From Armatimonadota bacterium (GTDB lineage Bacteria > Armatimonadota > DTGP01 > JAKQQT01): a stretch of 64,000 nucleotides of DNA. Of this stretch, positions 13,179-55,039 are shown one piece after another. Numbering within the stretch: the first letter of the stretch is position 1; every line of letters starts with the position of its first letter. Location: positions 118,184 through 182,183 of the forward strand of contig DASXVS010000002.1 of NCBI GenBank assembly GCA_036504095.1. The letters are read 5' to 3'. The position numbers were made by a program, and so were the translations under genes. The notes under the pieces were generated by a model. That model saw only the letters and a program-made list of their open reading frames with translations. It was not told where the DNA came from and ran no database searches.

Positions 13179-13245
13179 TTCAACGCGATAGCATCGGTTG
13201 TGAAAGGGTTGGGTGGAGGGCACACCCGGCTCGGGAGCGGGACCG

Positions 13246-16226: not shown

Positions 16227-16646
16227 CTACCGCCCGGCGCGCGGCGGACGGCGGCGCTTGGGCGTGGGCGATTTGGCCTTCTTCAGCTCCGCCACGCGCA
16301 CTGCCTTGTCCATCCAGACCGCGAGTTCGTCCGGGTTGTCCAGCACGAAGGCGGGCACCTCGTAATACTGCATCACCTGATCCGGGTTGTCGAACGGCAT
16401 GAACGGCCCCATGCCCTCCGCCTCGAAATCGCCGCGATTGGAGCTGTCGACCTTGAAGTACAACCGGTCGTTGGCCATGACGGCGAAGAAAAGCCCCTCC
16501 CGGTAAAGGCCCACGCCGCCGAACATGCTCCGGTCAGTCACGTGCGCAACCAGATTCAGGACGCTCAGGGTTTCCGCGCGATATGCGGGTGTTACGGGCA
16601 CGGCGTTTCCTCCACGCGGCGACGCACATGATGGTGTACCCGCCAT
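16227..16646 (-). CDS. TfoX N-terminal-domain protein
   Basis: MFGGVGLYREGLFFAV motif characteristic of the TfoX_N domain. Confidence 0.55.
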   Translation of the reverse strand: MAGTPSCASPRGGNAVPVTPAYRAETLSVLNLVAHVTDRSMFGGVGLYREGLFFAVMANDRLYFKVDSSNRGDFEAEGMGPFMPFDNPDQVMQYYEVPAFVLDNPDELAVWMDKAVRVAELKKAKSPTPKRRRPPRAGR

Positions 16647-30722: not shown

Positions 30723-30968
30723 TCAGCGGCAGCGACGGGTGTTATCGGCGAAGGCCAGGATCGCATCGGCGAGGTCCCCGGCGGAGGGGTTGAACTTTCC
30801 GGCGGCCATCCGGCGGCGAACCTCCCGCACTTTGTCCAAACGAATATCCGGTAGCGCGGCGTAAGCTGCGCGAGCGCGCAGGGCCTGTTCCGCCGGAATC
30901 GCCGGCGCGGTTGTGGCCGCCACAGCGCCACGGTCCCCGATAATCGCCCCGTCATGTGTGTAAATCAC
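30723..30968 (-). CDS. FlgM-like anti-sigma factor (tentative)
   Basis: C-terminal segment IRLDKVREVRRRMAAGKFNPSAGDLADAIL resembles the FlgM C-terminal helix; no flagellar genes in the window. Confidence 0.4.
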   Translation of the reverse strand: MIYTHDGAIIGDRGAVAATTAPAIPAEQALRARAAYAALPDIRLDKVREVRRRMAAGKFNPSAGDLADAILAFADNTRRCR

Positions 30969-32051: not shown

Positions 32052-32786
32052 TCACGGGAGGCCCGGCGCCGCCACGATGTTCGCCCGCACTTCGTTCCAG
32101 GGGCGGGCGGCCGCGTGACCGTCGCAGTAGACCGATACCGTGAGGCCGTCCCACTCCATGTAGGCGGGACGTCCCTGCGGCGGCGAATGCCACGGCAGCA
32201 CGTCCGTGATCAGCACCACGCGCGTCGGCCGCGCAACTACCGACGTCGGACGGGCGGCCAGGGCAGAGTTCTCGGGCTTGGGATAGGGGTTCTCGTCCAC
32301 CACCCGCGCGTACATATCGCGATAGAAATAACTGGCGCCGCCGTCTTTCCAGAACGGGCGGGCGGGGCCGGTCATCCAGTAATCGCTGAACTTGAGATTC
32401 AGGCCGGTGTCCGAGGGGCAGCGCCATATCTCGCGGGCCGCGCCGTACGGAGAGACGGCCTCGATAATGCCGGGCGTGCCTTCGATGAACGGTCCGAATG
32501 ACGCGTACTGCGGCGTGTTCCATTCGTTCCACGCGGCGGGGAAGGTGTCATTCCAGTCGTCCGCGTACGCGCGGATAGCGACGCCTATCTGTTGCAGGTT
32601 TGAGAGGCAGACGGCACGATCTGCTTTCGTACGTGAACGCGATAGAACAGGCAGCGCGATGCCCGCCAGAATGGCGATGATCCCGCTCACCACCAGCATC
32701 TCCAGCAGTGTGAAGCCGGCCCGGGCAGTAGGCAGGAGGCAGGAGACAAAAGAGGGTGTCCCGCGCACCGAACCCCGATTCCTCAT
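32052..32786 (-). CDS. Prepilin-type N-terminal cleavage/methylation-domain protein with DUF1559-like C-terminal region
   Basis: GFTLLEMLVVSGIIAILAGIALPV prepilin signal; CLSNLQQIGVAIRAYADD and a C-terminal YCDGH motif typical of the H-X9-DG family. Confidence 0.75.
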   Translation of the reverse strand: MRNRGSVRGTPSFVSCLLPTARAGFTLLEMLVVSGIIAILAGIALPVLSRSRTKADRAVCLSNLQQIGVAIRAYADDWNDTFPAAWNEWNTPQYASFGPFIEGTPGIIEAVSPYGAAREIWRCPSDTGLNLKFSDYWMTGPARPFWKDGGASYFYRDMYARVVDENPYPKPENSALAARPTSVVARPTRVVLITDVLPWHSPPQGRPAYMEWDGLTVSVYCDGHAAARPWNEVRANIVAAPGLP

Positions 32787-32794
32787 ATACAATC

Positions 32795-32860
32795 TGCAGT
32801 ACCTCCGCGCTACCTCCACGTTCCTCTGCGTCCTCCGCGTCCTCTGCGCTGAACTCCTAC
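32795..32860. repeat. CCTCCGCG / GCGTCCTC word-repeat element
   Basis: ACCTCCGCGCTACCTCCACGTTCCTCTGCGTCCTCCGCGTCCTCTGCG; reverse-complement words of the GCGGAGG family seen at 48697 and 51245. Confidence 0.5.
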
Positions 32861-33013
32861 GTCCAGGACTACTGAAGCAAGATCGATGCCCGGTGTTGTA
32901 ACCTCGCGATTCGCGCCGCCGTATCGGCTTTGGACGCGCTGGTGGCATCGCGTCATACACTATTGCCGATGGCTACCCAGGCCGCGACGCGGCGAAAGGA
33001 CGGTTTACCACAC

Positions 33014-39180: not shown

Positions 39181-39924
39181 ATGACTTCATACGAAACAAC
39201 CGACGATCTGAAGAATCTGCCGATCCACGACAACGGCGAGCCGCTTGTGGATTTTCGCACCTGCGGCGCGGTGTTCGCGCCGCGCCACAGCGTGTTCCCG
39301 TTCCCGCGGCTGCCGCTTCTGCGTTGGGGCGTCGTGGCCAGGCTCGTCGAGGTGGTGAAAGCGCTTCCCGTCGGCTGGACGCTGCACATCAACGAGGGCT
39401 TCCGGCCCATCGAGGTCCAGCGCCTTCAGTTTGAGGCGGGCCGGCGTCGCTTCGAATCGATGTTCCCGGACATGGATCCCGCTGAACGCGCCGCACTGCT
39501 CGAGGATTTCACCGCGCCGCCCGACGTCCCCGAGGTCCCGCCGCCGCACAGCACCGGCGGCGCATTGGACATCCGGCTGCTGGATGCTAACGGCGAGGAG
39601 GTAGACCTTGTCTCGCCGTTCGCGCGGGACGATACCTTGCACGTCGCCGCGTGGGATGCGCCCGTTTCACCTGAAGCGCGCGCGAACCGCGAGATACTGG
39701 GGGCCGCAATGGCAGCCGGCGGCATCACGAACTACCCCGCAGAGTACTGGCACTGGAGTTATGGCGACCAGGGCTGGGCCCACCGCGGCGGCCACCCCGC
39801 CGCGATCTACGGACGCCTGGACTACACGATTGCCGGCCTTGAGGCGATGACCGGCATACTCGCAAACCGCGAGAATCCCCTGCACGACTGGCCCGTGGAC
39901 CTCCCAAAGGAAATCATCACATAG
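39181..39924 (+). CDS. D-Ala-D-Ala dipeptidase (VanX-like, M15 family)
   Basis: HSTGGALDI zinc-ligand motif and EYWHWSYG motif. Confidence 0.7.
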   Translation: MTSYETTDDLKNLPIHDNGEPLVDFRTCGAVFAPRHSVFPFPRLPLLRWGVVARLVEVVKALPVGWTLHINEGFRPIEVQRLQFEAGRRRFESMFPDMDPAERAALLEDFTAPPDVPEVPPPHSTGGALDIRLLDANGEEVDLVSPFARDDTLHVAAWDAPVSPEARANREILGAAMAAGGITNYPAEYWHWSYGDQGWAHRGGHPAAIYGRLDYTIAGLEAMTGILANRENPLHDWPVDLPKEIIT

Positions 39925-39989: not shown

Positions 39990-41216
39990 TCAGTCTTCTT
40001 CCCAGCTCTTCGGGCTGAAGCCGGTGACCACACCCTTAACGTTCTGAAGCGCTTCGTCGTAATGCAGAACGGTGCCGTTGCCGTTGAAAGATACGGTCTT
40101 CCCGGCCAGGGAACCGTACACGTTCCCGGAGGTGCCGGCGCCGTTCAGCACGATGTCGGCTTCAGGGGCGTACACGGCCGCGGAAAGCGCCCCGTTGCCG
40201 GAGATGCTCACGCTGGTGCAGGTCGGCGTGCCGTAGAGGATGAGATCGCACGGCCGCGCCAGCCTGCCGGTCATATCGTTGTTGTTCACGATGCCGTTGC
40301 CGCCAATGAACATGCTGCCTGTAACGTAAAGGTACACGCGACCGCTGGTGGTGACGATGCTGTTACCGGTCAGGCTGATCGAATCGCAATAGTACGTGCC
40401 CGCAGGGATGGCCAGCGAGCCGGTGATGGCATTCCTGCCGCCATTGATCCTCGAAATCGGGATGGCGTCGCCCGGAATGGCCACATCGGGCATAGTGGCG
40501 GTTGCCGGGGCCGACAGTACGCTGCCGGATATGCGGCTGCGATCCAGCGTCACGCTGTTCAGATTCGTGCTTGGACCGTAGATCACGTTTCCGCCGCAGT
40601 GGCCGTTGTTCAAGATGGTGATGGCGCTGGGGTTCGTGGAATCCGTCCGAATGTCTCCCTTGGTGCCCACGTTGGTGCCGCCGTACGTACCGCCGCCCGT
40701 GGCGGGATCGGAGTTGTACGAGTCCGTTTCGCCGTTGGCCAGCGGAACGCCGTTACGGCCGAACGCCGCCGCGCTGAATGGTGTACCCCAACGCTTGTAT
40801 GCTATCACCCGCACCTGCTTGGCCAACTTGCCCCGCCCGTTGGCGGCAGGGGAGTATCCATGCGCCGTCACCTGCAGGTAGTCACCCCCCAGTTCGATGA
40901 TCGGATCCACCGTATAGGTTCCGATGGTGGTGGTCGCCCCGCCAACCGTTTCGACCAGCGGCTTATCGGTGAAATCCACCGGGCTGCCGGTGCAGCGCCA
41001 CACAGGGTTCGTGTTCATCTGGTTCAGCGCGCGTTCGATACCGGCCTCCGCCAGATTCCGAACGATGAGCGTCTGGCCGCCCGCGCGCGTGGATTTCTGC
41101 TCCGATGTAGCCATCGTTGTCATCGCCACCCCCAGCGCGAGCACGATGACCATGAACGCCAGCGCCGCTATCATGGCGAACCCACGGCGCTTTCGATTGT
41201 GATTGATATCAGTCAT
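39990..41216 (-). CDS. PilX-like minor pilin / pilus assembly protein
   Basis: N-terminal RRGFAMIAALAFMVIVLALGVAM hydrophobic segment, then a Gly/Thr/Asn-rich beta-rich region; last gene of the pilin cluster. Confidence 0.45.
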   Translation of the reverse strand: MTDINHNRKRRGFAMIAALAFMVIVLALGVAMTTMATSEQKSTRAGGQTLIVRNLAEAGIERALNQMNTNPVWRCTGSPVDFTDKPLVETVGGATTTIGTYTVDPIIELGGDYLQVTAHGYSPAANGRGKLAKQVRVIAYKRWGTPFSAAAFGRNGVPLANGETDSYNSDPATGGGTYGGTNVGTKGDIRTDSTNPSAITILNNGHCGGNVIYGPSTNLNSVTLDRSRISGSVLSAPATATMPDVAIPGDAIPISRINGGRNAITGSLAIPAGTYYCDSISLTGNSIVTTSGRVYLYVTGSMFIGGNGIVNNNDMTGRLARPCDLILYGTPTCTSVSISGNGALSAAVYAPEADIVLNGAGTSGNVYGSLAGKTVSFNGNGTVLHYDEALQNVKGVVTGFSPKSWEED

Positions 41217-41244
41217 TTTGTGTATCCTCTCGCGATGGGCAAAG

Positions 41245-42204
41245 TCAGACCTGTGGTGGGACGTTTACCGTCACGGAAGACGCCGCCGCCTCCCGACCCA
41301 CAACAACGTTGGTGACCGTGGCCGCCGCGCCGTCGGTGGGTGATGCCGTGACGGAGTACGTCCCTTCCATCAGGCCATAAAGTTCAAAGGTCCCGATCGC
41401 GTCCGAAGTGGTGGAAATTACGATGGTGCCGACAGGGTAGGCGCCGGTGGTGCTGGTATACGTAGCCTTCACAACGGCATTTGGCACGCCCACGCCGTTG
41501 CGCATCACGCACCCGGGGATGCTTCCGCTGCGCATGTTCCGAAGCCGCACCCCGGTCACCGAGACGGGGCACTCGCCGCTGGCCCTGCCGGTACCCAGAA
41601 TCTGCGTCTGGAAGTCGATGGAAGCGACCCTCGGGCCGGCGGTGGCGGCGACCGGCGTTCCGTCGCGATTTTTCAGTACAAGCGTGAACTGCTGGACATT
41701 GCGGGCTATTACCGCGGATCTCTCCGCCGAACGGTAGCTGGTTCGCGGCGAGTGCGCATCGTTGGTTACCACATTGACGGCCGGAACCACGGTTCGCCGC
41801 AGCGTCTGGTCCGCGGGATTGATGTAGTAGATAACAGTGTCCGTCACGATCGCCTGGGGCGTCGCCGTTCCGACCCCGTAGTACAGCAGACCGTAGGCGT
41901 CCTGCGAGGGAACCTGCAGAATCAAGCAGGCAGCCGGGCTCGGCCCGGAGGATGCCGTATAGGACACGCCGTCCACGATTGTGGAACTGAGAAATGCGGT
42001 TGCGCCGCGCGCGTCGGTGGCCATGCGGTCCAGCACCGTGCGCGTGCGAAGCTGCGCGTAGGTACGCGCCTGCTCGTTATGAAAGCCTCTGGTGCCTCCG
42101 ACGTAAAGCCCGACGGCGGTGGCCATCAGACCGCCGGAAATAGCGGTCGCCACCACCGTTTCCATCAATGATACACCGTAACGGCCTATTCTGAATCGTT
42201 TCAT
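41245..42204 (-). CDS. Pilin-like protein (prepilin-type leader) with C-terminal Ig-like/carboxypeptidase-regulatory-like domain
   Basis: GVSLMETVVATAISGGLMA resembles a G/xxxxE prepilin cleavage motif; start overlaps the upstream stop. Confidence 0.45.
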   Translation of the reverse strand: MKRFRIGRYGVSLMETVVATAISGGLMATAVGLYVGGTRGFHNEQARTYAQLRTRTVLDRMATDARGATAFLSSTIVDGVSYTASSGPSPAACLILQVPSQDAYGLLYYGVGTATPQAIVTDTVIYYINPADQTLRRTVVPAVNVVTNDAHSPRTSYRSAERSAVIARNVQQFTLVLKNRDGTPVAATAGPRVASIDFQTQILGTGRASGECPVSVTGVRLRNMRSGSIPGCVMRNGVGVPNAVVKATYTSTTGAYPVGTIVISTTSDAIGTFELYGLMEGTYSVTASPTDGAAATVTNVVVGREAAASSVTVNVPPQV

Positions 42205-42776
42205 CGTGCCCCGATTCCTCCCTGGGCGATGATGGTGCCCATAACCGCGTATCGCGGCTGCTTGTTGGGATCCGTCCAGCGCACGATGACGGTCACATGC
42301 TTGGCCGGGTACGTCGCGGTTGTGCCATTCGGGCCCAAGGTGGTGCTGGTGCCGTTCGAGTCGTTGGTGATGATTACACCGCCGCTGCCGCCGCTGAGAT
42401 TGGCGAGGTTGGGGATCTGCCCCGGATAGCCGGCGTCACCCGGTCTTGAGGCATCGGAAGTCCCATCCGCCTTCAGAAAGCGGGCTTCCTGCGTCCCGGC
42501 CGGGGTCGGCGCCTTTATGATGGTCTGCAACGTCGCGAAGGGGATGTTGCGCACCAGTTCGATCTCGAGCTGCGCTGCCTGGTAGGCCTGGGCCATGTTC
42601 CTGGCATCGGAGTTGCCAACCGTGCTGATGGCCACCAGGTAAAATGCCGATACGATTCCCACTACGGTAAGGACGATCGCGCACAGAACCTCCACAAGCG
42701 TGAAGCCCCGGCGTTTCCCTCGGTGAATTGCAGCATGGCCGCTTCGGCGCGGCGCGCCTGAATCCGGTTTTCTCAA
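42201..42776 (-). CDS. Prepilin-type pseudopilin / minor pilin
   Basis: RRGFTLVEVLCAIVLTVVGIV; proposed TTG start is in frame (codon 63 of the track ORF) and preceded by AAGGAGG with a 5-nt spacer. Confidence 0.65.
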   Translation of the reverse strand: MRKPDSGAPRRSGHAAIHRGKRRGFTLVEVLCAIVLTVVGIVSAFYLVAISTVGNSDARNMAQAYQAAQLEIELVRNIPFATLQTIIKAPTPAGTQEARFLKADGTSDASRPGDAGYPGQIPNLANLSGGSGGVIITNDSNGTSTTLGPNGTTATYPAKHVTVIVRWTDPNKQPRYAVMGTIIAQGGIGAR

Positions 42777-42841: not shown

Positions 42842-43312
42842 TCACTGCAGGACCGGATCCGTTGCGGTGGCGGGGGCCCCGTTGTTCACAACGGATCGAA
42901 TTGCGCCGCTCGCGTCGATGAAGAACGAACGCCGGCCGGTTGTCCCGAATTGAATGGGGCACGCGGTGATGGCGTAGTTGCTGGCGTCGCCGCCGCCCGC
43001 GAAAGCGTATCCGGACTTCTGCCCTGACGCGAGAATCGGGTCCAGTTCCGGTGGCACGAGCGCCCCCAGGTCCTGGATATGGGAGGGATAGGCGTAGTTC
43101 CCGCCCACGTTCCGCAGCTGATAGGTCTCCATCGCCTTCGAGATGACGCGCATCGAACCGATCGCGCTACTCTCGTTGGCGGCCATCCGGGACTCCAGCA
43201 TGTTCGGTATGGCAAGCCCTGCCAGGATAAGGATGACCGTGATCACGATCAACAGCTCCACGAGTGTGAAGCCTCTCGGCCGGCGGCGGTACGCGTTTGC
43301 TATCAAAGACAT
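42842..43312 (-). CDS. Type IV pilin-like protein (156 aa), paralog of the pilin at 45898..46368
   Basis: RGFTLVELLIVITVILILAGLAIPN class III signal; AGGAG ribosome-binding site 7 nt before the ATG; shares the AANESSAI motif with the paralog. Confidence 0.75.
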   Translation of the reverse strand: MSLIANAYRRRPRGFTLVELLIVITVILILAGLAIPNMLESRMAANESSAIGSMRVISKAMETYQLRNVGGNYAYPSHIQDLGALVPPELDPILASGQKSGYAFAGGGDASNYAITACPIQFGTTGRRSFFIDASGAIRSVVNNGAPATATDPVLQ

Positions 43313-43638: not shown

Positions 43639-45756
43639 CTACCGCGTCAGGCCTTTTCCCCTCCACGGCGCGAGTTCGGGGTGGTCCGGATAGGAATCCG
43701 CCGCCCAACCGAGCAAACGATCGCTCAGATCCGGCCGGTTTTCGTCCCGGAAAATGCCGGCAAGGCGCACATACGCCGACGGGTCCAACGGCTCCGACTC
43801 GATGGCGGCGCGTAACGTGTACTTTTCGCCGTAAGCGTTTCCGCTGGCCCGGTAGGCGCGCGAAAGGGCCATCCAGGTTGTGGACGATACCGGCGCTTCC
43901 CGCACGGCCTGGCGTGCCTGCGTAACGGCCTCACGCGTGTTCAGATAGCAAAGCGCTTGCGCCAGCCCCGCGCGCCATATGCCGTTGCGCGGCTCGGCGG
44001 CGAGGTTTGCCGAGTACGCCTCGGCAGCGTCCTCCGCCGGTCCCATCACCTCCATGCCGCTTTTCGCTGCGGCGGCTTCCAGCGCTGTCTCACCCAGCGC
44101 GCGACGATAGCCAACTTCCGACGGGTCGATCAAGGATGCCGCGCGGTAATACGGCACGGCTGCCCCCGGCCGGCCTTGCGCTCTTAAGTGCGCGCCAAAA
44201 CCGCTCGCAGTGTCCGCTCCAAGGGTTGAGAGAGCTGCCACGATGGCCGCGGCGCCCCAGCCATATCCGGCGATTCGGGTTGCGTGGGCGGGTACGGTCC
44301 AACGCCTGCGGACAACAGGCTCCAGCGCCGCCGTCAGCCCCCAGCACAGCGCCAGGCACAGCGTGGTGGTTGGCGCGCGAGGAGTGAAGCTTCCCTGGAT
44401 AACAAACGCGGCGATCGCGCCGAAAACCGCGGCGGCCGTGTCTGCGCGGCGCATTGCAGTTGGACTCCCGCCCGGTGTCGGAACCGGCCGCCCCTTCCTG
44501 GCCAACAGGCCGGCTTCTTCCCGCGCCCGGTCCGAGGCCAGGCCCGCGATCAACACCACGAGGAGCGCCCAGGCCACAAGTCCGAGTGCGCCGCCTTCAA
44601 CGGCCGCGGAATACCACTCGCTTTGCGCGTTCTGGTGCGGCAGCAGGAGGGCGTCAGGCATATTTACAGAATCGTGGGCGATCGTCGACGCCGCGATCCG
44701 ATAGCCATCCGGGCCGTAACCCAGGAACGGCCGCTGGCCGAAGAGGCCGCTGGCGACGCCCCACAACGTCTTGCGAGCCGACGCCGCCTGAGTTTCGGCG
44801 GTGGCCCGCCTCTCCGTACGCGCCGCCGAGCCGGGTAGATGCGTGTCCGCGAACACGGCTAGTGCGGCAACGGCCAGGCCGACCGCAAGCGCACGTCGGG
44901 CGGCGCTGAATCCCGGCAGCGATGCGAGCCACCATATGAGGAAGGCGCCCAGCGGCGCCGAAAGCGCGAATGCCGCGGAATGGGAACGCGTCCAGACGAT
45001 TGGGAGCGCCATCATGATGATCATCGCTATCCCGCCGAGGCTGGGATTCAACGGCCTGGAAGAACCCCGGCCCGCGGCGTAAATCGTCACGATCAGTCCC
45101 GCCGCTGCCGCTACCCACGCGGCGCGCGCATAGGTCAACACCAGCGCGACGACGATCGCCGCGATGGCCGGTGTCAGCCAGCGAGGACTCCTCCGCATCC
45201 GGGAAATCGCCAGCGCAAACGGCAGCGCCAGCGCGAGGAACGCCCCCAGGTAAACGGGTGAACCCACCGTGCCTGCCGCCGCATATGCCCGATTCGCCGC
45301 GCCCCCTTGGAGAAGATCGAGGGCGTAGTGCTGCGCAATGGCGTAGGCCGAGGAGATGCCGGCCGATGCGACCAACGCGAGCATCAACCGCCGACGCGCC
45401 CCCGCCTTCCTCGCCACCTCCGCGAAGGCCAGCGCCAGCACAGCCCCCGGCAGCAGGTTCAGCGCCGCCCACGCACTGCTGACCCGCGATACCGCCGCCA
45501 TCACCGTAACGAGCGTTGCGAGCATCCAGAACACCCCTGGCCAGAGGAGTCGCGATGGCAGCGCCGCCTTGCGCAATCTGCTGAAGAGGAATCCGGCGCC
45601 GCCGGCGGCCGCCCACATCGCGGCGATTTTGATCCTCCCACAAAGCGATTGCCCCAACGGGTTCATCAGCAGCGGAGTGAGAAACAGAACCAGGACGGCC
45701 AGCCTCTCAAGGGCGCGCCGTGCCTGTTGTGCCGCCAACCGTTCTCTGTTGTCCAT
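43639..45756 (-). CDS. O-antigen ligase (Wzy_C) family polytopic membrane protein with C-terminal TPR-like region
   Basis: Many Ala/Leu-rich TM helices; LTYARAAWVAAAAGL resembles the conserved ligase block; C-terminal soluble region with TPR-like helices; lies between two pilin paralogs. Confidence 0.65.
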   Translation of the reverse strand: MDNRERLAAQQARRALERLAVLVLFLTPLLMNPLGQSLCGRIKIAAMWAAAGGAGFLFSRLRKAALPSRLLWPGVFWMLATLVTVMAAVSRVSSAWAALNLLPGAVLALAFAEVARKAGARRRLMLALVASAGISSAYAIAQHYALDLLQGGAANRAYAAAGTVGSPVYLGAFLALALPFALAISRMRRSPRWLTPAIAAIVVALVLTYARAAWVAAAAGLIVTIYAAGRGSSRPLNPSLGGIAMIIMMALPIVWTRSHSAAFALSAPLGAFLIWWLASLPGFSAARRALAVGLAVAALAVFADTHLPGSAARTERRATAETQAASARKTLWGVASGLFGQRPFLGYGPDGYRIAASTIAHDSVNMPDALLLPHQNAQSEWYSAAVEGGALGLVAWALLVVLIAGLASDRAREEAGLLARKGRPVPTPGGSPTAMRRADTAAAVFGAIAAFVIQGSFTPRAPTTTLCLALCWGLTAALEPVVRRRWTVPAHATRIAGYGWGAAAIVAALSTLGADTASGFGAHLRAQGRPGAAVPYYRAASLIDPSEVGYRRALGETALEAAAAKSGMEVMGPAEDAAEAYSANLAAEPRNGIWRAGLAQALCYLNTREAVTQARQAVREAPVSSTTWMALSRAYRASGNAYGEKYTLRAAIESEPLDPSAYVRLAGIFRDENRPDLSDRLLGWAADSYPDHPELAPWRGKGLTR

Positions 45757-45897: not shown

Positions 45898-46368
45898 TTA
45901 CTGGATCGGGGTGCCTGCGCCCACTGCAACGGCAGCGGAGCCGGCGCGGATAACGCCCGTCTGGTCCACGGAGAAGAAGCGGTCGCCGGAAGAACCAACG
46001 GTCGTCGGTGCGGCGGTGAAGCCATAGGTGTTGGCGAAGGCGTCCGTCGAGACTGGCGCGCTGAACGTGTAACCGCTCTTGATACCGGTGGCCAGCACCG
46101 GGTCGATGAGGTTGGCGGCATCGCCATCGGCGACGAACAGGGCGACCGTGTTAGCGCCGGTCAGGGAACTGGCATAAAGGTGGCTGGCGCTGCGGGCGCG
46201 GAATGTCTCCTGCGCAGAAACCAGGGTGCGCAGCGAGGAAATAGCGCTGGACTCGTTCGCGGCCTTGCGGCTGGAGAGCAGGTTCGGGATCGCGATGGCC
46301 GCCAAAATGGCGATGACCGCGATGACGATCAAGAGTTCGATCAGGGTGAAGCCCTTGTTGGCTTTCAT
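45898..46368 (-). CDS. Type IV pilin-like protein (156 aa)
   Basis: KGFTLIELLIVIAVIAILAAIAIPN class III signal; AAGGAGAA ribosome-binding site upstream; start by codon arithmetic. Confidence 0.75.
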   Translation of the reverse strand: MKANKGFTLIELLIVIAVIAILAAIAIPNLLSSRKAANESSAISSLRTLVSAQETFRARSASHLYASSLTGANTVALFVADGDAANLIDPVLATGIKSGYTFSAPVSTDAFANTYGFTAAPTTVGSSGDRFFSVDQTGVIRAGSAAVAVGAGTPIQ

Positions 46369-48863: not shown

Positions 48864-50330
48864 TTACTTCTTCCGCCCATACCCGACTGCCCAGGCGCCT
48901 GCCAACGCGCACAGCGCCACGAACCAGTCGCCGAACCGCACATACGGGGTACGGTCGTTACGCAAGCCCACTGTGCCGCTGAGGGTGCCCGCCTGTCCGA
49001 GCGGCAGCGATTCCTGGACCTCGCCGGAAGGCGAAATGAGCGCGGAGATGCCGGTATGGCCGCACCGGACGACCCAGCGGCGCGTCTCGATGGCCCGTAG
49101 TCGCGCCGCCTCCAGGTGCTGGACCGCCATGCCGGTGCGCCCGAACCAGGCGTCGTTGGTGATGACCACCAGGAGGTTGGCCCCTTCGCGAACGAACGCT
49201 CGGGCGGCTTTGGGAGACGCCGATTCGAAGCAGATCGGCACGCCTAGACGCAAATCCCCCGCCGAGAGCACTTCGTACTTCATCCCCGGCTCTTCATCGC
49301 GTTCCACAACCCCGAAATCGCCCAGGAACGGCAGCACGTGGCGGAGCGGAACGAACTCCCCGAACGGCACCAATTGTCGCTTTCGATAGATCCCCGCGAC
49401 GCTTCGATCCGGCCCGAACAGAACGGCGGCGTTGAACGGCGCGCCGCTTGCCCCGTACCCGATGGCGCCGGTCAGCAGCGGCGCATCGAGGCGGGCCGGA
49501 ACGTCGGTCGCTCGCTGAAGGAGCGCCGGGTCCGCCAGGATGGCCCCCGGCGCAGAAGATTCCGACCACACGATGAGGCCGGCCCCTCCGCCGGCTTTCA
49601 GCGTCGCCGCCCGCATCGCCTCGAACGCGCGGTAGCCCCCGGCGCTGCTCCACGCATCGTTGGAGTCGCCCTGAACACACAGCACCGTCCCAAATTGATG
49701 ATCGCTGTCCGCCGCGCCTGCTCGCGCCCACTCGCTCATCCCATAGCCGATGCCCGTTGCCAACAGCACAACGATGAGACCAGCTATACCGGCGCGTCGC
49801 CCGGCGCGATCCCCTCGGACCAAAAGGAACAACGCGGTTCCCGCGAACGCGACCATCGCGCTCACCATATAGCAACCGCCGATCGAGGCCCATTGCGCCA
49901 CCGGTGTCGCGACGGCCGGCGTTGACAGACCGCCGAACGGGAAGCCATAGGTGCCACTGCCCCGCGCCCATTCTGCAACCGCCCAGATCGCGGGCACGCC
50001 GGCCAGAATCGCCACCCTGGAGCGCCGCAGCACCGCGGCCAGCGCCACCGCGATAGGGATGAACCAGAGCGCCTCGATCGCCGTGAACAACGCCCACGGC
50101 AGGACCGCCATCCAGATCACGCCCTCGCCGAATGAGGTCGTGAACAGGCCGACCCCGCCCATGAATGCCAGACCCATCAGATAGCCGCGGCCGACCGCCT
50201 GTTTCGGCGTCGCGCCGCTCAACGACCACAGCAGTGGAATCAGGGCGAACCAGACGAGGGTATCCCACCCGAACGGCGGAAAGCATGCCGCCAGGAGCAA
50301 ACCGGACAAAAGAGCGGCCAGGGCGCGCAT
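48864..50330 (-). CDS. lnt: Apolipoprotein N-acyltransferase
   Basis: N-terminal multi-TM region followed by a CN-hydrolase domain (LIVWSESS, ICFESA); start by codon arithmetic at MRALAALLSGLLLAAC. Confidence 0.8.
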   Translation of the reverse strand: MRALAALLSGLLLAACFPPFGWDTLVWFALIPLLWSLSGATPKQAVGRGYLMGLAFMGGVGLFTTSFGEGVIWMAVLPWALFTAIEALWFIPIAVALAAVLRRSRVAILAGVPAIWAVAEWARGSGTYGFPFGGLSTPAVATPVAQWASIGGCYMVSAMVAFAGTALFLLVRGDRAGRRAGIAGLIVVLLATGIGYGMSEWARAGAADSDHQFGTVLCVQGDSNDAWSSAGGYRAFEAMRAATLKAGGGAGLIVWSESSAPGAILADPALLQRATDVPARLDAPLLTGAIGYGASGAPFNAAVLFGPDRSVAGIYRKRQLVPFGEFVPLRHVLPFLGDFGVVERDEEPGMKYEVLSAGDLRLGVPICFESASPKAARAFVREGANLLVVITNDAWFGRTGMAVQHLEAARLRAIETRRWVVRCGHTGISALISPSGEVQESLPLGQAGTLSGTVGLRNDRTPYVRFGDWFVALCALAGAWAVGYGRKK

Positions 50331-50379
50331 TTGCCCAGGCCGATTGAGGCATCCTGAGCGCAGCGCAGCGCCCCACCGA

Positions 50380-50470
50380 CTGAAGGCGGCGGTTGTTGCC
50401 CCCCAAAGTCGGCTGAAGCCGACTGCGAACCAGCCGGCTTCAGCCGTCTTCGTACGGCAGACGTTGGCTT
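50380..50470. repeat. GGCTGAAGCCG / CGGCTTCAGCC alternating-orientation word repeats
   Basis: GTCGGCTGAAGCCGAC ... CCGGCTTCAGCCG ... GGCTTCAGCC in the lnt upstream region. Confidence 0.5.
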
Positions 50471-50525
50471 CAGCCAATGGGGCAACGGAATGGTTCAGCG
50501 GGCCTCGGGCGGCTATCATGGGGTC

Positions 50526-51224
50526 ATGAAAATCGTGTCGCTCGTTCACATCGGTATGGTATCATTGTCGGCCGCACTTTTGGCAGGCTGCGCCCGCACT
50601 CCACCCGGAGCCACCACGGGCGCACAGACCCTCGTGACGTTCGAGGTGCAGGTGGCCGGGCAGATCGTACCCGGCGACCCAAATGCCTACTACTACATCG
50701 TTCTGGATACCGACAACAACCCGGCCACCGGGCCGATTCCGGTCGTGGCCCGCCCATGGGGAAACGGGTACGCCGCGGGCTCCTATACCCACTACGTGCT
50801 CTACCATAACGGCGTGTTCGGCGTCTACGAGTCCATCGACCCCAACCATACCACCTCGACCTACCTGGGGCGGCCCCTGCAGGGCGGCATCACAACCACC
50901 AACCGGCCCAACGACACCCTGTTCGTCCAGGTGGACCGCGCTCAGATCGCCGATATTCACCCGGACGTCCGCGCCATCGACGTCAATGTCATCAGCACCG
51001 ACCGCGTGCCGCTCGACCCCCAGGAACTCACCGTTAAGGTAGTGGACGGCCTCGGAGCCTCAGGAAATGACTACGTGACCATCCCGTTCGGCTTCACCAC
51101 CGTCTACACAAACGGCGTGGACCCCGACCCCGCCCATCCCGAGACTCCCCGCGACGCCGACGGACTCGCGAACAACCCTAACCTCGACCTCATTAACTGG
51201 CGCATCACCGTCCAGACACAGTGA
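50526..51224 (+). CDS. Hypothetical lipoprotein
   Basis: Signal peptide with lipobox LLAGCA; no recognisable domain. Confidence 0.5.
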   Translation: MKIVSLVHIGMVSLSAALLAGCARTPPGATTGAQTLVTFEVQVAGQIVPGDPNAYYYIVLDTDNNPATGPIPVVARPWGNGYAAGSYTHYVLYHNGVFGVYESIDPNHTTSTYLGRPLQGGITTTNRPNDTLFVQVDRAQIADIHPDVRAIDVNVISTDRVPLDPQELTVKVVDGLGASGNDYVTIPFGFTTVYTNGVDPDPAHPETPRDADGLANNPNLDLINWRITVQTQ

Positions 51225-51483: not shown

Positions 51484-53703
51484 CTAGAATCCTGGCGGCA
51501 AACTCGACGCCGTGCTGCTCTGCAAATCCCCGCCGCCGATGTTCAAGTTCTCGCCGAACATGCCGGTGGTGAACGGGTCGGCCATCGGGAACGCCTTGAT
51601 CCGTATCAGCACGCGGATCCCCGTCTCGTTGCGCCAGCCTTTGTCGTTGATCAGCGCGACGGACGCCTCGGTGCAACCCATATCCTTCGCGACGAGGAAG
51701 TGGCGGTATCGCTGTCCGCTGTCCGTGCCGGCGAGAGCCCGCACGCGCCAGTCGCGGCCGACGGGCGTGTCGAGGCTGCCCAGCAGCCGTCCGAACCGTC
51801 CTGTCGCCGGTATGTAGCGGCCTTCGCCGTCGAAGTGGAGCCCGCCCAGCCGCAGCCGAAGGCCGCTGTTCACGTAGCGCACTTTTGACGTCTCGCCCGG
51901 CGCCTTGCCGTTCACGTTGATCGCCGCGTTGGTCACCCATCGTATCCCGGGAGTGGGCTGCACGATCGCCATCGCCAGGAGGTCGCGCCAGGGCGTGAGG
52001 TGGTTGCGGAAGTCATACGCCGTGCCGGCGCGGAGCTCCAGGGCGCGCATATCGGCCAGTTTCACTGTGCCGCTGAGGCTCTCGTACGCGAACGGACGGT
52101 CGAACTGGAACGGCGTGTAGCCCTTCGGCTTCGAGACGCTGTAGCTCAGCGTGAAGTCCGATTTGCGACCGAGAGGCTGCGTGACGCCCAGGTTGCCGGT
52201 CAGCGTGTAGAGCGCTGCGTCACTTGTGTAGATCGCCTGCCGAAATCCGCCGCCCACGTTCAACGTCAGCGATCCGGCCTTCCACCGCCGGTTCGGCGCG
52301 GTTGCCTCGAACAACTGCCGCCCCCCGCGATGCCCGTTCGCCTCGAACGAGCCGTCCGCCAGCGTGAGCGCAACCGGCGCCGATTTGGACGCGGTCAGCC
52401 CGAGCCTATACGCGTCCGATTTGAGCGTGAGTTCCGGCAGCCGCTGGACCGGCAGATACAGCCCGCCCGTTTCGCCGCCTCCGTGGACCGCTATATGGTT
52501 GGCCGCCAGTTCCACATCCACCGCGTTGAAGCCCTGCGCCACGCTGATCTTGTGGTCTACTTCGCTCGTGGCCGGGATGCCCGCCGATGACTGCCGCGTG
52601 CTGTCGACGCCGAATTGGAGGGTCCCCTTGGGGTCGAATTTGTACGCCTGCGCGAATCCTGCCGTCACGCCCTGGTATTTGCCGCCGCCCGACTTGCTGC
52701 CGTTGTAGCGGAGCGACAAACGGGTGTCCGATGCGCCCACCGCGCGTGCCATCGAGATCCCGGCGCTGCGCGACGTGCTGCCGGGCACATACAGGTAGGA
52801 GTTCTTCCGAAGTTCGCCTTCCAGCTGCGTGTCGAAGCCAAGGATCTTGCGGTTGTCGCGCAGATTGGCGCTCAGGTTGCGCCCCGCCTGCCCCGTCACC
52901 GAATACAACGACACCTCCCCCTTGCCGTTGGGCGCATAGTCGTGCGTAACTCCGAGGCCGAGCCCCTGCTTCTGCATTACGTCCACATGCACCGCGCCCG
53001 TCTGCCCGCCCCGGGCATAGTTCAGCAGCGTCTTAAGGAAGAAGCCTTCCTCCGTGCTCTGCCCCACCACCGGCACGACCGGCGCCTGCCCGCCCTGCTG
53101 CTTGATAGGAAAAACCAGCGTCGGCACGGTGGCCAGCCTCCGTCCGAACAGCAGCGTGGTCGCGTGCCGTGCGATGACCTTCCGGTCCGGCAGGATGGTC
53201 ACCTCTCGGGCGACGACCTCGTACTGCGGCCGCACCGGATCGCACGAGGTGATGTGCGCGTTGTAGAGCGTGATCTCGCGCCTGGATCCCTTAATGCTCT
53301 CCGCCATCACGTGGAATGGTGAAAGCGCGCCCACGGGGGTCACATCCGTGGTCGACTTGCTCATCGACCACTCCCGCGTCTTGATGTTGAACTCCAGGAA
53401 GCTGTCCGCGCCGCCGCTGACGGTCTCTTTGCCGGTGTCCAGCGCCACGTTTCCGCGCAGGATGGCCGTCGACGTCGTCTCGTCGAAATCGCCCGCGTCC
53501 CCGGTCAAAACGTACTGCTTGTGCGTGATGCGAACGTGGCCCGCCGCGACCCAGTGCTTCGCGGACTCCTCGTAGTGGGTGATATCGGCCGAAATTGTGG
53601 CGTTCGGCGCGGGCGCGAGCGGCAGGCCGGGCGCGGTCTGCCCCAGTGCGCGCGGGGCGCAGAGGAGGGCAATCGCAGCGACGGCGGTTATTCCTCGCGC
53701 CAT
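51484..53703 (-). CDS. lptD: LPS-assembly protein LptD-like (OstA N-terminal domain plus outer-membrane beta-barrel)
   Basis: Signal peptide MARGITAVAAIALLCAPRALGQ; OstA-like N-terminal segment; long beta-rich C-terminal region; start by codon arithmetic. Confidence 0.65.
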   Translation of the reverse strand: MARGITAVAAIALLCAPRALGQTAPGLPLAPAPNATISADITHYEESAKHWVAAGHVRITHKQYVLTGDAGDFDETTSTAILRGNVALDTGKETVSGGADSFLEFNIKTREWSMSKSTTDVTPVGALSPFHVMAESIKGSRREITLYNAHITSCDPVRPQYEVVAREVTILPDRKVIARHATTLLFGRRLATVPTLVFPIKQQGGQAPVVPVVGQSTEEGFFLKTLLNYARGGQTGAVHVDVMQKQGLGLGVTHDYAPNGKGEVSLYSVTGQAGRNLSANLRDNRKILGFDTQLEGELRKNSYLYVPGSTSRSAGISMARAVGASDTRLSLRYNGSKSGGGKYQGVTAGFAQAYKFDPKGTLQFGVDSTRQSSAGIPATSEVDHKISVAQGFNAVDVELAANHIAVHGGGETGGLYLPVQRLPELTLKSDAYRLGLTASKSAPVALTLADGSFEANGHRGGRQLFEATAPNRRWKAGSLTLNVGGGFRQAIYTSDAALYTLTGNLGVTQPLGRKSDFTLSYSVSKPKGYTPFQFDRPFAYESLSGTVKLADMRALELRAGTAYDFRNHLTPWRDLLAMAIVQPTPGIRWVTNAAINVNGKAPGETSKVRYVNSGLRLRLGGLHFDGEGRYIPATGRFGRLLGSLDTPVGRDWRVRALAGTDSGQRYRHFLVAKDMGCTEASVALINDKGWRNETGIRVLIRIKAFPMADPFTTGMFGENLNIGGGDLQSSTASSLPPGF

Positions 53704-54782
53704 ATCAGCCACGCTCCCACGCCGGTGAAGACCGCGTTCGGCAGCCACGCCGCCAGCACAGGCGGCAGCACCGAACCGCCCATTTCCTTGAAGAACAGGT
53801 ATCCCTGCACGTAGAGGAAGAAGAGCACCAGCGCGATCAGGATGCCCGTGAAGCCGCCACCGCGGCCGAAATGCACCGCCAGCGGCAGACTGATGATCGT
53901 CAGCACCACGCACGCGAACGGCAGCGCGAATTTCAGGTAGTAATCCACCTTCCATTCCCGCGTGTTCGGGTTGCCGGTCCTCACCCCCTCCGCGATCGCC
54001 CGCGACAACTGCATCGCGTTCATCTCGTCCGTCGTCTGCGCCATCGTCCACAGCGTGCCCACCGTCCGGTCAACGTCGAACGTGAACTTGGGGAACGCGA
54101 CCTCGTTGGTGGTGAACCCGCGCGCATCCATCTCGCGCCGCACGCCCCGGTACAGAGTCCATTTGGTGCCGCTGGCGGTGGCCGTCTCGGCGGTGTACAG
54201 GACCGGATACGTGCCGGACCGCATCTCGTAGACCATCACGCGCGTCAGCAGAAACGCCACCTCGTTCGGGTTGGCGGAATCCCGCGTCTTCTGCATGTCG
54301 CCGATGTAGAACTTGAACTGCCCCGTGCCGAAGAAGACGTCGCTGCGGATGGAGATCGGTCGCACCTTGAAGAACAGGCGGTACTCCGCCATCGACGCGC
54401 GGTGGTTCATCATCGGGGCGATGGTCTCATTGATGTAGAAGCTCGCCACGCTGATCAGCGCGGCGACGACCATCATGGGGACGAGGATGCGCTTCAACGG
54501 CATCCCGCTCAGGCGCATGACGGTGATCTCGTTCTCGCGCGCCATCCGGTTCACGCCCAGCGACACGCCGAACAGCACCGCCACCGGCAGCGCGTATACG
54601 ATGAACTGCGGCATCCGGTAGGCGATGACCTTCGCTACTTGCGAAAGCGCCGCGCGGTCGTTCATCACCAGCCGGAACAGGTTCATCAGCACCGCGCTGA
54701 CCTGCATCAGCAGGAAGCCGAACACCCCAACGAGGAACGGCGCCAGCAGCTCGCGCGCCAGATATCGGTCGGCCGTCTTCAC
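53688..54782 (-). CDS. LPS export ABC permease LptF/LptG family (YjgP/YjgQ)
   Basis: DRYLARELLAPFLVGVFGFLLM N-terminus and permease layout; proposed GTG start at codon 28 because the upstream 27 codons are encoded by a GATGAA word repeat. Confidence 0.7.
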   Translation of the reverse strand: MKTADRYLARELLAPFLVGVFGFLLMQVSAVLMNLFRLVMNDRAALSQVAKVIAYRMPQFIVYALPVAVLFGVSLGVNRMARENEITVMRLSGMPLKRILVPMMVVAALISVASFYINETIAPMMNHRASMAEYRLFFKVRPISIRSDVFFGTGQFKFYIGDMQKTRDSANPNEVAFLLTRVMVYEMRSGTYPVLYTAETATASGTKWTLYRGVRREMDARGFTTNEVAFPKFTFDVDRTVGTLWTMAQTTDEMNAMQLSRAIAEGVRTGNPNTREWKVDYYLKFALPFACVVLTIISLPLAVHFGRGGGFTGILIALVLFFLYVQGYLFFKEMGGSVLPPVLAAWLPNAVFTGVGAWLIWREE

Positions 54783-54783
54783 G

Positions 54784-54850
54784 CTATGAGTATAGGGAAC
54801 GAAGCGATGAATGATGAACGATGGGCGATGAATAGCGGAGGCGGATTGAG
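54784..54850. repeat. Diverged copy of the GATGAA/CGGAGG word-repeat element
   Basis: GAACGAAGCGATGAATGATGAACGATGGGCGATGAATAGCGGAGGCGGATTGAGC. Confidence 0.55.
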
Positions 54851-55039
54851 CTTGGAGGGACACAGAGAAAGCTGGTGATGGGCGTCCGGACAGGAGTGGA
54901 AGACCGAAGCGCTACCTTCCGTCCGCTCTCTTCCAAGGAATCACCGTTCCTGACGGGACCGGTCCTTCACGGTGAAAGTATGGTCCAGCCCTGCCGGACG
55001 CCCGGGATTGGCGTCCAGCAGGACACACCACTTGGACCG

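What the first reader, a model, noticed from the sequence alone, without database searches (positions are those of the whole stretch)
39990..42776. Three-gene minor-pilin set including a pilin with a C-terminal Ig-like domain and a PilX-like protein
The operon continues downstream of the pilin/ligase module with a prepilin-type pseudopilin (TTG start supported by AAGGAGG), a pilin-like protein with a beta-sandwich-like tail (TIVISTTSDAIGTFELYGLMEGTYSVTASP) and a 408-aa PilX-like Gly/Asn/Thr-rich protein. No ATPase, secretin or platform gene is in the window, so whether this is a type IV pilus, a type II secretion pseudopilus or another fibre is open.
Basis: partly seen in the sequence, partly recalled or inferred. 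Interest (0 to 1): 0.45.

Follow-up and report, generated by a model that had tools for sequence, protein, structure and literature searches.

The report
Type IV pilus tip minor-pilin trio
Three tightly packed genes in an uncultured Armatimonadota genome encode the PilV-, PilW- and PilX-like minor pilins that most likely start and cap a type IV pilus; the arrangement is an ordinary, already described kind with two known decorations (a ComZ-like beta-solenoid cap and a carbohydrate-binding-like add-on domain).

Summary
Window 39990-42776 (minus strand) carries three co-oriented genes of 191, 319 and 408 aa, separated by a 4-nt overlap and a 28-nt gap. They end a pilin / Wzy_C-TPR / pilin operon.

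- **191 aa:** N_methyl above Pfam and TIGR cut-offs, cleavage motif G|FTLVE.
- **408 aa:** G|FAMIA with no Glu5 (0 of 58 relatives have it), DUF7305 at 68 bits. Its AF2 model (pLDDT 92) matches Thermus ComZ first, then ice-binding beta-solenoids.

This is the GspI/J/K = PilV/W/X pattern of a priming and tip complex.

No ATPase, platform or secretin gene is in the window. In relatives, though, the DUF7305 gene sits directly before pilMNOPQ (L010), or between pilT/B/C plus pilins and pilMNOPQ (L012). That favours a type IVa pilus over a type II secretion pseudopilus.

Solenoid-bearing PilX/ComZ caps and N_methyl–PF13620 modular pilins are both published. I file it as a new member of a known kind, of low to moderate interest. 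The ligand (surface glycan, own polysaccharide or DNA) is unknown. The PilV assignment of the 191-aa protein rests on position and N-terminus only.

The parts
42201..42776 (-). 191-aa minor pilin, in the PilV/GspI-equivalent position. TTG start, 24-aa leader, cleavage motif RRG|FTLVE with Glu5; the mature protein is 167 aa.
   Evidence: N_methyl scores 27.9 bits against a cut-off of 21.2. TIGR02532 scores 20.6 against 16.3. PilV TIGR02523 and GspH score only 21-23 bits, on the N-terminus alone. AAGGAGG lies 5 nt before the TTG. G24, F25 and E29 are invariant in 9 relatives. N_methyl is found in 8 of 9 family members. Its best matches in other loci are the small pilin next to the PilW-like gene. 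The fold of the globular part was not tested.
41245..42204 (-). 319-aa bimodular minor pilin. Leader MKRFRIGRYG|VSLMET with Glu5, a PilW/GspJ-fold module (about residues 11-225), and a C-terminal transthyretin-like CarboxypepD_reg beta-sandwich (about residues 227-314).
39990..41216 (-). 408-aa PilX/GspK-type capping pilin of the ComZ kind. Leader MTDINHNRKRRG|FAMIA (no Glu5), a long alpha1 helix (residues 4-69), a pilin beta-sheet (85-143), an ice-binding-like beta-solenoid (about 150-392, DUF7305), and a terminal strand (397-407). It is the last gene of the operon.
   Evidence: DUF7305 scores 68.4 bits, pAdhesive_15 23.1 and PilX_N 12.9. In the family, DUF7305 is found in 70 of 70, pAdhesive_15 in 31 of 70 and PilX_N in 9 of 70. 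Gly(-1) is present in 58 relatives and Glu at +5 in 0 of 58. The AF2 model has pLDDT 92.4 and pTM 0.82. The top Foldseek PDB hit is ComZ 6qvi (E 3.7e-7), followed by ice-binding proteins. A convergent Peptidase_M15 gene follows at 39181-39924.
42842..43312 (-). Upstream major-pilin-like gene 2 (156 aa from MSLIANAYRRRPRG|FTLVELL). It may be a second fibre subunit, or the adaptor that a FimU/GspH protein provides elsewhere.
   Evidence: N_methyl scores 33.9 bits. The best NCBIfam match is GspG, 47.7 bits, below cut-off. It is 41% identical to pilin 1. The public gene call is 156 aa.
43639..45756 (-). 705-aa Wzy_C (O-antigen ligase family) membrane protein with C-terminal TPR repeats. It is a candidate pilin O-glycosylation enzyme or polysaccharide ligase.
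   Evidence: Wzy_C scores 49.5 bits against a cut-off of 31.7; TPR_14 is weak. The same Wzy_C-TPR gene sits immediately upstream of the trio in another Armatimonadota locus, L004.
45898..46368 (-). Major-pilin-like gene 1 (156 aa from MKANKG|FTLIELL), the first gene of the operon.
   Evidence: N_methyl scores 38.1 bits. The best NCBIfam matches are Myxococcus PilA and GspG, on the N-terminus. A terminator-like hairpin for the upstream gene lies at 46798-46772.

Best explanation
The three genes encode the core minor pilins of a type IVa pilus, that is, its priming and tip complex.

**Proposed steps (all inferred).**
1. A prepilin peptidase encoded elsewhere in the genome cuts each protein after the conserved Gly and methylates the new N-terminus.
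2. The three hydrophobic alpha1 helices associate in the inner membrane, as in GspI-GspJ-GspK.
3. The 408-aa protein lacks Glu5, so it can only sit on top and caps the fibre.
4. The 319-aa (PilW/GspJ-fold) and 191-aa (PilV/GspI-position) proteins lie beneath it.
5. Major pilins then polymerise under this trimer. These are probably one or both of the two paralogous pilins upstream, possibly glycosylated by the Wzy_C-TPR enzyme between them. The trimer thus ends up at the distal tip.
6. Two modules are exposed there: the ice-binding-like beta-solenoid of the cap, and the transthyretin-like, carbohydrate-binding-like domain grafted on the PilW-like subunit. Together they act as tip plug and adhesin or ligand receptor, taking the place of a PilY1-type protein.

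**Shown here:** the gene structure, the signal motifs, the folds, the Glu5 pattern, and the synteny with pil genes in relatives.

**Inferred:** processing, trimer formation, tip location and the ligand.
For: **Signal motifs and Glu5 pattern.** Glu5 is present in the 191-aa and 319-aa proteins and absent in the 408-aa protein. This matches GspI/J versus GspK and PilV/W versus PilX (the Glu5 rule is stated in bioRxiv 10.64898/2026.02.12.705559).

**Folds.**
- The best PDB hit of the 408-aa model is ComZ. ComZ is a GspK-like pilin with an inserted ice-binding-like solenoid, argued to sit at the tip (PMC6561018).

**Gene order and packing.** The order small pilin, PilW-like, PilX-like, and the tight packing (4-nt overlap, 28-nt gap), fit one complex.

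**Conservation.** The trio is conserved as a cassette in other Armatimonadota (L001, L002, L004) and in Coraliomargarita (L013).

**Link to type IVa pilus genes in relatives.**
- In L010 a 33%-identical DUF7305 protein is followed directly by PilM, PilN, PilO, a 126-aa gene and a secretin.
- In L012 it lies between three T2SSE ATPases (one PilT-sized, two with MshEN), a T2SSF gene and pilins on one side, and PilM-PilO-secretin on the other.
- In L008 and L009 it follows GspH-like, PpdB/PilW-like and PilX_N genes.

**Annotation.** JGI names several family members PilX.
Against: - No assembly ATPase, platform, PilMNOPQ or prepilin peptidase is in this 64-kb window, so the machine that uses these proteins was not identified in this genome.
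- Only 2 of 9 distinct loci examined, counting the window's own, show adjacency to pil machinery.
- The globular fold of the 191-aa protein was not modelled, and it matches no PilV/GspI profile beyond the N-terminus.
- No FimU/GspH-type fourth core minor pilin was recognised.
- The similarity to ComZ is by architecture only. TM-scores are about 0.3 and rmsd is 14 Å over the whole chain, and a family profile finds no pilin in the PDB by sequence.
- The 319-aa model is of middling confidence, pLDDT 70.6 from 7 sequences.
Confidence: 0.78

Rival explanations
1. The trio is the GspI-GspJ-GspK tip of a type II secretion pseudopilus, a short periplasmic piston that pushes folded proteins through a secretin, rather than a surface pilus.
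For: - The best structural matches of the 319-aa N-module are type II secretion pseudopilins: XcpW, EpsJ and GspJ.
- The upstream pilins score best on GspG, and the 191-aa protein scores best on GspH, among NCBIfam models. All these scores are below cut-off.
- No PilM/N/O/Q gene is in the window.
Against: - The cap has no match to the GspK family. It has a ComZ-type solenoid instead.
- Relatives lie next to PilM_2/PilO/secretin genes and a PilT-sized ATPase, not GspC/L/M.
- Two bulky exposed ligand-binding-type modules, and a Wzy_C-family gene next to the pilins, fit a surface fibre better (inference).
Confidence: 0.1
2. The set primes a specialised competence pilus. The solenoid cap is a DNA receptor, as ComZ is in Thermus or the PilX-Com set is in cyanobacteria, rather than a surface or glycan adhesin. 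This would be a sub-case of the best explanation: it differs in ligand and role, not in the kind of complex.
For: - ComZ is the top structural hit. It binds DNA and partners with the neighbouring GspI-like PilA2 (PMC6561018).
- Cyanobacteria use separate minor-pilin sets for competence and for motility.
- A TfoX_N-domain gene lies 23 kb away at 16227-16646.
Against: - The solenoid here is much shorter than in ComZ (about 240 versus about 380 residues), and there is no sequence similarity.
- The mature cap is mildly acidic, pI 6.0.
- The two DNA-binding lysines of ComZ could not be mapped onto this protein.
- The grafted PF13620 domain is predicted to be carbohydrate-binding-like (PMC8179133), and the operon carries a Wzy_C glycan enzyme. 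Both point to a glycan or surface ligand.
- No com genes are nearby.
Confidence: 0.2
3. The 408-aa protein is a free-standing secreted or anchored beta-solenoid adhesin or ice-binding-type protein (choice-of-anchor A / pAdhesive_15 type) that merely neighbours pilin genes, and is not a filament subunit.
For: - pAdhesive_15 scores 23.1 bits and choice_anch_A 25.3 bits, both just under cut-off.
- NCBI names two relatives 'collagen-binding domain-containing protein'.
- Foldseek hits ice-binding proteins with TM-scores of 0.5-0.6 on the target.
Against: - The N-terminus is a basic leader, a conserved Gly and a 66-residue alpha1 helix followed by a pilin-type sheet, not a Sec signal peptide.
- PilX_N is found in 9 of 70 relatives.
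- The gene follows pilin genes in every locus examined.
- ComZ outranks all ice-binding proteins.
Confidence: 0.04

Closest known systems
Thermus thermophilus pilA1-pilA2-pilA3-comZ competence minor-pilin locus (ComZ structure 6QVI; PMC6561018)
   Same: - A cap protein built from a GspK-like pilin module plus a triangular, ice-binding-like beta-solenoid. ComZ is the best PDB match of the 408-aa model.
- It is encoded next to small GspI/GspJ-like pilins.
- A tip location is argued on steric grounds.
   Different: - There is no detectable sequence similarity.
- The solenoid here is about 240 residues, against about 380 in ComZ.
- There are three genes before the cap's stop, not four.
- The PilW-like partner carries an extra transthyretin-like domain.
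- DNA binding is untested.
Cyanobacterial PilX families (PilX-Com / PilX-EPS, HpsA-related) with their PilV partners (bioRxiv 10.64898/2026.02.12.705559)
   Same: - A PilX homologue whose pilin fold carries a bulky ice-binding-like solenoid before the C-terminal strand.
- No PilY1 is recognised nearby.
- The solenoid is proposed to act as the tip plug.
- The cap pairs with a dedicated PilV-type pilin.
   Different: - The phylum is different (Armatimonadota).
- Membership of the cyanobacterial subfamilies was not tested, because no cyanobacterial sequence was available to compare.
- HpsB and HpsC NCBIfam models score far below cut-off: 17 against 150 and 13 against 200.
GspI-GspJ-GspK (XcpV-W-X) pseudopilus tip complex, and P. 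aeruginosa FimU-PilV-PilW-PilX
   Same: - Gene order I-J-K.
- Glu5 present in the first two proteins and absent in the cap.
- A GspJ fold in the middle protein.
- The presumed role is priming and capping of the fibre.
   Different: - No GspK or T2SSK family match, and no alpha-domain insertion; a solenoid is present instead.
- No recognisable GspH/FimU gene.
- No PilY1.
- All equivalog models score below cut-off.
Modular type IV pilins of architecture IPR012902-PF13620 (Raynaud et al. 2021, PMC8179133, Dataset S1)
   Same: - An N-terminal pilin module with a C-terminal CarboxypepD_reg domain.
- It is the third most common modular-pilin architecture, with 66 proteins, and is predicted to be carbohydrate-binding-like.
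   Different: - Here the carrier is specifically a GspJ/PilW-fold core minor pilin.
- The full-length architecture is confined to about 8 clusters at 50% identity. Shorter relatives of 190-230 aa lack the extra domain.

Membership tests
Type IV pilin-like proteins (class III signal peptide, IPR012902/PF07963) | Short basic leader ending in Gly, then a hydrophobic alpha1N with Glu at +5, matched by the N_methyl profile | tested here: met
   - **191 aa:** N_methyl 27.9 bits against 21.2, and TIGR02532 20.6 against 16.3.
- **319 aa:** the motif G|VSLMET is present and conserved. The profile hits 3 of 7 homologues, not the window protein itself.
- **408 aa:** Gly(-1) and a hydrophobic helix but no Glu5, as expected for a cap.
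Type IV pilin-like proteins (class III signal peptide, IPR012902/PF07963) | Cleavage and N-methylation by a prepilin peptidase (PilD/GspO) | not testable with these tools
   No peptidase A24 gene was found in the window. This needs biochemistry or the whole genome.
PilX / GspK-type capping minor pilin | Pilin N-terminus lacking Glu5 | tested here: met
   Ala sits at +5. None of the 58 relatives with Gly(-1) has Glu at +5.
PilX / GspK-type capping minor pilin | Match to PilX_N (PF14341) or GspK (T2SSK) profiles above cut-off | tested here: not met
   PilX_N scores 12.9 bits against 25.5 for the window protein, and there is no T2SSK hit. At family level, 9 of 70 relatives match PilX_N at E up to 0.01, best 2e-10.
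ComZ-type solenoid pilin | GspK-like pilin module combined with an ice-binding-like triangular beta-solenoid | tested here: met
   The AF2 model has pLDDT 92.4: helix 4-69, sheet 85-143, beta-rich 150-392, terminal strand 397-407. Foldseek ranks ComZ 6qvi first (E 3.7e-7, probability 1.0), then LeIBP and other ice-binding proteins. Global TM-scores are low (0.25-0.30), so this is a match of architecture, not a tight superposition.
ComZ-type solenoid pilin | Sequence homology to ComZ | tested here: not met
   A profile of 70 relatives finds no ComZ or other pilin chain in the PDB at E up to 1.
ComZ-type solenoid pilin | Solenoid inserted within the pilin beta-sheet, with the last strand returning to the sheet | tested here: inconclusive
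   The secondary-structure order is consistent and W405 is invariant.
DUF7305 (PF23981) | Pfam profile match above the gathering score | tested here: met
   68.4 bits against 27 over residues 279-392. All 70 relatives match. No paper in the library mentions DUF7305.
PilW / GspJ minor pilin | GspJ-type fold of the globular domain | tested here: met
PilW / GspJ minor pilin | Match to PilW (PF16074) or GspJ (TIGR01711) profiles | tested here: not met
   There is no PilW or GspJ hit for the 319-aa protein at E up to 1; only XpsI at 14.6 bits. JGI names one homologue PilW.
CarboxypepD_reg (PF13620) domain | Profile match and transthyretin-like beta-sandwich fold | tested here: met
PilV / GspI minor pilin | GspI/PilV profile match or fold of the globular domain | tested here: inconclusive
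   TIGR02523 PilV scores 21.1 bits against 52.2 and GspI 12.4 against 44.35, both on the N-terminal 50 residues only. A family profile finds only pilin N-termini in the PDB. The assignment rests on size, Glu5 and the position before the PilW-like gene.
Type IVa pilus system (as opposed to type II secretion) | Genetic linkage to pilB/pilT/pilC/pilMNOPQ | tested here: inconclusive
   Not met in this window. Met in relatives L010 (DUF7305 gene followed by PilM-PilN-PilO-secretin) and L012 (three T2SSE ATPases, T2SSF, pilins, DUF7305, then PilM-PilO-secretin). Seven other distinct loci, counting the window's own, are stand-alone cassettes.
Verru_Chthon cassette / cyanobacterial Hps pseudopilins | NCBIfam models TIGR02596-02600, HpsB and HpsC above cut-off | tested here: not met
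   All score far below cut-off: TIGR02600 at 9.3 against 332, HpsB at 17 against 150, HpsC at 13 against 200.

The most novel reading that the evidence does not exclude
DUF7305 proteins would be a phylum-spanning family of Glu5-less, solenoid-bearing PilX caps, found in Armatimonadota, Planctomycetota (Brocadiaceae), Verrucomicrobiota and Omnitrophota. They would replace PilY1 as the plug and adhesin of type IV pili.

In this Armatimonadota clade the tip would have become bivalent. It would show both the solenoid and a transthyretin-like glycan-binding module grafted on the PilW-like subunit. The fibre would be primed by only three dedicated minor pilins, and a paralogous, possibly glycosylated, major-type pilin would stand in for FimU/GspH.
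Probability: 0.3. Interest if true: 0.4.

Novelty: new member of a known kind. Interest (0 to 1): 0.25.

Why it matters
- **Annotation of a Pfam family.** It gives a concrete, testable annotation to a domain of unknown function. DUF7305 appears to be the C-terminal half of the solenoid in PilX/ComZ-type pilus caps.
- **Taxonomic reach.** It extends the solenoid-cap design, so far described in Thermus and cyanobacteria, to Armatimonadota and several other poorly studied phyla.
- **A gene-calling pitfall.** The public gene calls truncated all three N-termini, which hides the pilin signal peptides from domain searches.
- **Limits.** It does not open a new mechanism or settle an open question.

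Tried and rejected
- **Exact-sequence look-ups** of the 408-aa reading and of window 2341-3036 found nothing. The public calls use other starts, so I could not walk along the 184-kb contig to look for pilB/C/M-Q.
- **The genome-contig scan** failed twice for lack of conserved stretches. With a narrower alignment it returned only one locus, which I already had (L011 = L002, an Armatimonadota MAG at 59% identity). I therefore have no survey across species.
- **Sequence-profile searches of the PDB.**
  - The 408-aa family gave only chance-level phage spike hits.
  - The 319-aa family gave only the C-terminal sandwich.
  - The 191-aa family gave only pilin N-termini.
- **Word-indexed homologue searches** found just 7 and 6 relatives for the 319-aa and 191-aa proteins. 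This limited the depth of the 319-aa model.
- **Literature.** A search for DUF7305 found no paper. The fibrillar-adhesin paper did not describe pAdhesive_15 in the text I searched.
- **Rejected family assignments.** Verru_Chthon cassette, Hps pseudopilins, GspK family and Tad/Flp pilins; the first three score far below cut-off or have no profile match, and Tad/Flp was set aside on motif alone without a profile test.
- **Alternative start for the 191-aa gene.** A GTG at about 42846 overlaps the upstream pilin's stop. I rejected it in favour of the TTG because of the strong Shine-Dalgarno sequence and the lengths of the homologues.
Full report
**What is there**

On the minus strand, window 46368 to 39990 holds one co-oriented gene string:
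- a major-type pilin (45898-46368);
- a 705-aa Wzy_C/O-antigen-ligase-family protein with TPR repeats (43639-45756);
- a second major-type pilin (42842-43312), 41% identical to the first;
- the three genes of the finding: 42201-42776 (191 aa, TTG), 41245-42204 (319 aa) and 39990-41216 (408 aa).

The TTG start is preceded by AAGGAGG with a 5-nt spacer. The 191-aa and 319-aa genes overlap as ATGA. The 319-aa and 408-aa genes are 28 nt apart, with a GAGAGG box upstream of the latter. A convergent Peptidase_M15 gene ends the unit. All three ORFs show coding GC3 bias.

The identical DNA is on a 184-kb JGI metagenome contig. Its gene calls (164, 306 and 394 aa) start downstream and delete each signal peptide. 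The nearest named relatives are Armatimonadota MAGs.

**The 191-aa protein**

It passes N_methyl (27.9 bits against 21.2) and TIGR02532. It has RRG|FTLVE with Glu5. G24, F25 and E29 are invariant across nine relatives, and 8 of 9 relatives hit N_methyl. Homologues of 176-184 aa cover its leader, which supports the TTG start.

Beyond the N-terminus no profile or PDB sequence matches. In other loci its best matches are the small pilin adjacent to the PilW-like gene. I therefore call it the PilV/GspI-position subunit. That is an inference; its fold was not tested.

**The 319-aa protein**

It has MKRFRIGRYG|VSLMET. The Gly-x-x-L-x-Glu pattern is kept in all the homologues whose sequence includes the N-terminus, and three of seven family members hit N_methyl.

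Foldseek agrees. Pfam CarboxypepD_reg matches at E 2e-6, below the gathering score in the window protein, and matches at E ≤ 0.1 in 7 of 7 family members.

An exhaustive phmmer search of 1.84 billion representatives finds the full two-module architecture in only about eight 50%-identity clusters. Relatives of 190-230 aa stop before the extra domain, as do the middle genes of L001 and L004.

The architecture N_methyl–PF13620 is already catalogued as the third most common modular pilin (66 proteins). It is predicted to be carbohydrate-binding-like (PMC8179133).

**The 408-aa protein**

It has MTDINHNRKRRG|FAMIA. Gly(-1) is present in 58 aligned relatives, and none of them has Glu at +5.

Profile matches are DUF7305 at 68 bits, pAdhesive_15 and choice-of-anchor A just under cut-off, and PilX_N weakly. 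Across 70 relatives, DUF7305 hits 70, pAdhesive_15 hits 31 and PilX_N hits 9.

The AF2 model is confident (pLDDT 92.4, pTM 0.82). It shows helix 4-69, a five-strand sheet at 85-143, a beta-rich body to residue 392 and a final strand at 397-407. Foldseek against the PDB ranks Thermus ComZ first (E 3.7e-7), followed by fungal, yeast, algal and bacterial ice-binding proteins.

This is the description of ComZ: a GspK-like pilin module with an inserted solenoid whose closest relative is an ice-binding protein, argued to be a tip pilin (PMC6561018). It is also the description of cyanobacterial PilX proteins, whose solenoid is proposed to replace PilY1 as the tip plug (bioRxiv 10.64898/2026.02.12.705559).

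There are caveats. Global TM-scores to ComZ are only 0.25-0.30. There is no sequence-level link.

**Which machine**

The window has no T2SSE, T2SSF, PilM/N/O, secretin or peptidase A24 gene. Gene neighbourhoods of relatives decide the lean.

| Locus | Neighbourhood of the DUF7305 gene |
|---|---|
| L010 | Follows four pilin-like genes; followed directly by PilM, PilN, PilO, a 126-aa gene and a secretin |
| L012 | Sits inside a full cluster: PilT-sized ATPase, two MshEN-T2SSE ATPases, T2SSF, pilins, DUF7305, PilM, PilO, secretin |
| L008 (Brocadiaceae) | Follows GspH-like, N_methyl, PpdB-like and PilX_N genes |
| L009 | Pilin set includes a PilW-family gene and a ComP-like pilin |
| L001, L002, L004, L013 | Stand-alone trio, once again behind a Wzy_C-TPR gene (L004) |

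PilM_2 and PilO profiles, and a PilT-sized ATPase, are marks of type IVa pili rather than type II secretion (established knowledge). Hence I put a type IVa pilus at about 0.78 and a type II secretion pseudopilus at about 0.1.

**Mechanism proposed**

After prepilin-peptidase processing, the three alpha1 helices bundle in the inner membrane as in GspIJK. The Glu5-less 408-aa protein caps. The PilW-like and PilV-like subunits dock below it. Major pilins are then added from beneath, so the trimer rides at the tip. There it displays the solenoid and the transthyretin-like module as plug and adhesin.

Every step after the sequence and fold facts is inferred. The ligand is open. The PF13620 domain and the Wzy_C enzyme hint at glycans; the ComZ resemblance hints at DNA. 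A TfoX_N gene 23 kb away is too weak to weigh. The absence of a recognisable FimU/GspH gene is unexplained. The second pilin paralogue may fill that place.

**Verdict**

Each component type is already described: the I-J-K pattern, the ComZ/PilX solenoid cap, and the N_methyl–PF13620 modular pilin.

What is new is limited:
- its occurrence in Armatimonadota;
- the link of Pfam DUF7305 to this role, which no paper in the library makes;
- the combination of two add-on modules in one predicted tip.

I file it as a new member of a known kind, with interest 0.25.

Noticed in passing
window 32052-32960 (-), motif at about 32717: A fifth prepilin-type protein (ARAG|FTLLEMLVV). It has N_methyl at 25.7 bits and a weak DUF1559/SBP_bac_10 match. 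This is the expanded 'pilin-like' class common in Planctomycetota and Armatimonadota. It is not part of the operon.
   Followed up: partly
window 43639-45756 (-), and L004 6881-8884: A Wzy_C (O-antigen ligase family) protein with C-terminal TPR repeats lies between two 41%-identical major-type pilins. The same Wzy_C-TPR gene precedes the minor-pilin trio in another Armatimonadota MAG. It may be a pilin O-glycosylation enzyme of the TfpO/PglL kind. Neither pilin ends in Ser.
   Followed up: partly
window 39990-42776 versus JGI Ga0376481_000140 (L006 8480-11185): The public gene calls start 27, 13 and 14 codons too late. This removes the class III signal peptide from all three minor pilins, so precomputed Pfam shows no N_methyl for them.
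   Followed up: yes
window 16227-16646 (-): A stand-alone TfoX_N-domain protein (90.7 bits). TfoX/Sxy regulates competence in Gammaproteobacteria; its meaning here is unknown.
   Followed up: no
window 13213-16197 (+), 51484-54051 (-), 60953-63250 (-): Three large ORFs (994, 855 and 765 aa) with coding-type GC3 and no Pfam match at E up to 0.01.
   Followed up: no
window about 30723-30923 (-) (L006 20252-20452): A small FlgM-family gene (anti-sigma-28). It suggests the organism also has flagella.
   Followed up: no
L012 1-15798 (GCA_964373715.1) and L010 7852-15325 (GCA_040960315.1): Relatives in which the DUF7305 cap gene is embedded in a type IVa pilus supercluster: ATPases, PilC, pilins, the cap, then PilM-PilO and a secretin. 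These would make useful reference loci for annotating DUF7305.
   Followed up: partly
L009 9353-9940 and 10001-11386: Two adjacent DUF7305 genes. One is a 195-aa fragment-like copy without a pilin N-terminus. They follow a PilW-family gene and precede a ComP_DUS-like pilin.
   Followed up: no
window 53688-54863 (-), 48864-50549 (-): LptF/LptG permease and apolipoprotein N-acyltransferase genes. They are consistent with a diderm envelope with LPS and triacylated lipoproteins, and so with a secretin-dependent pilus.
   Followed up: no
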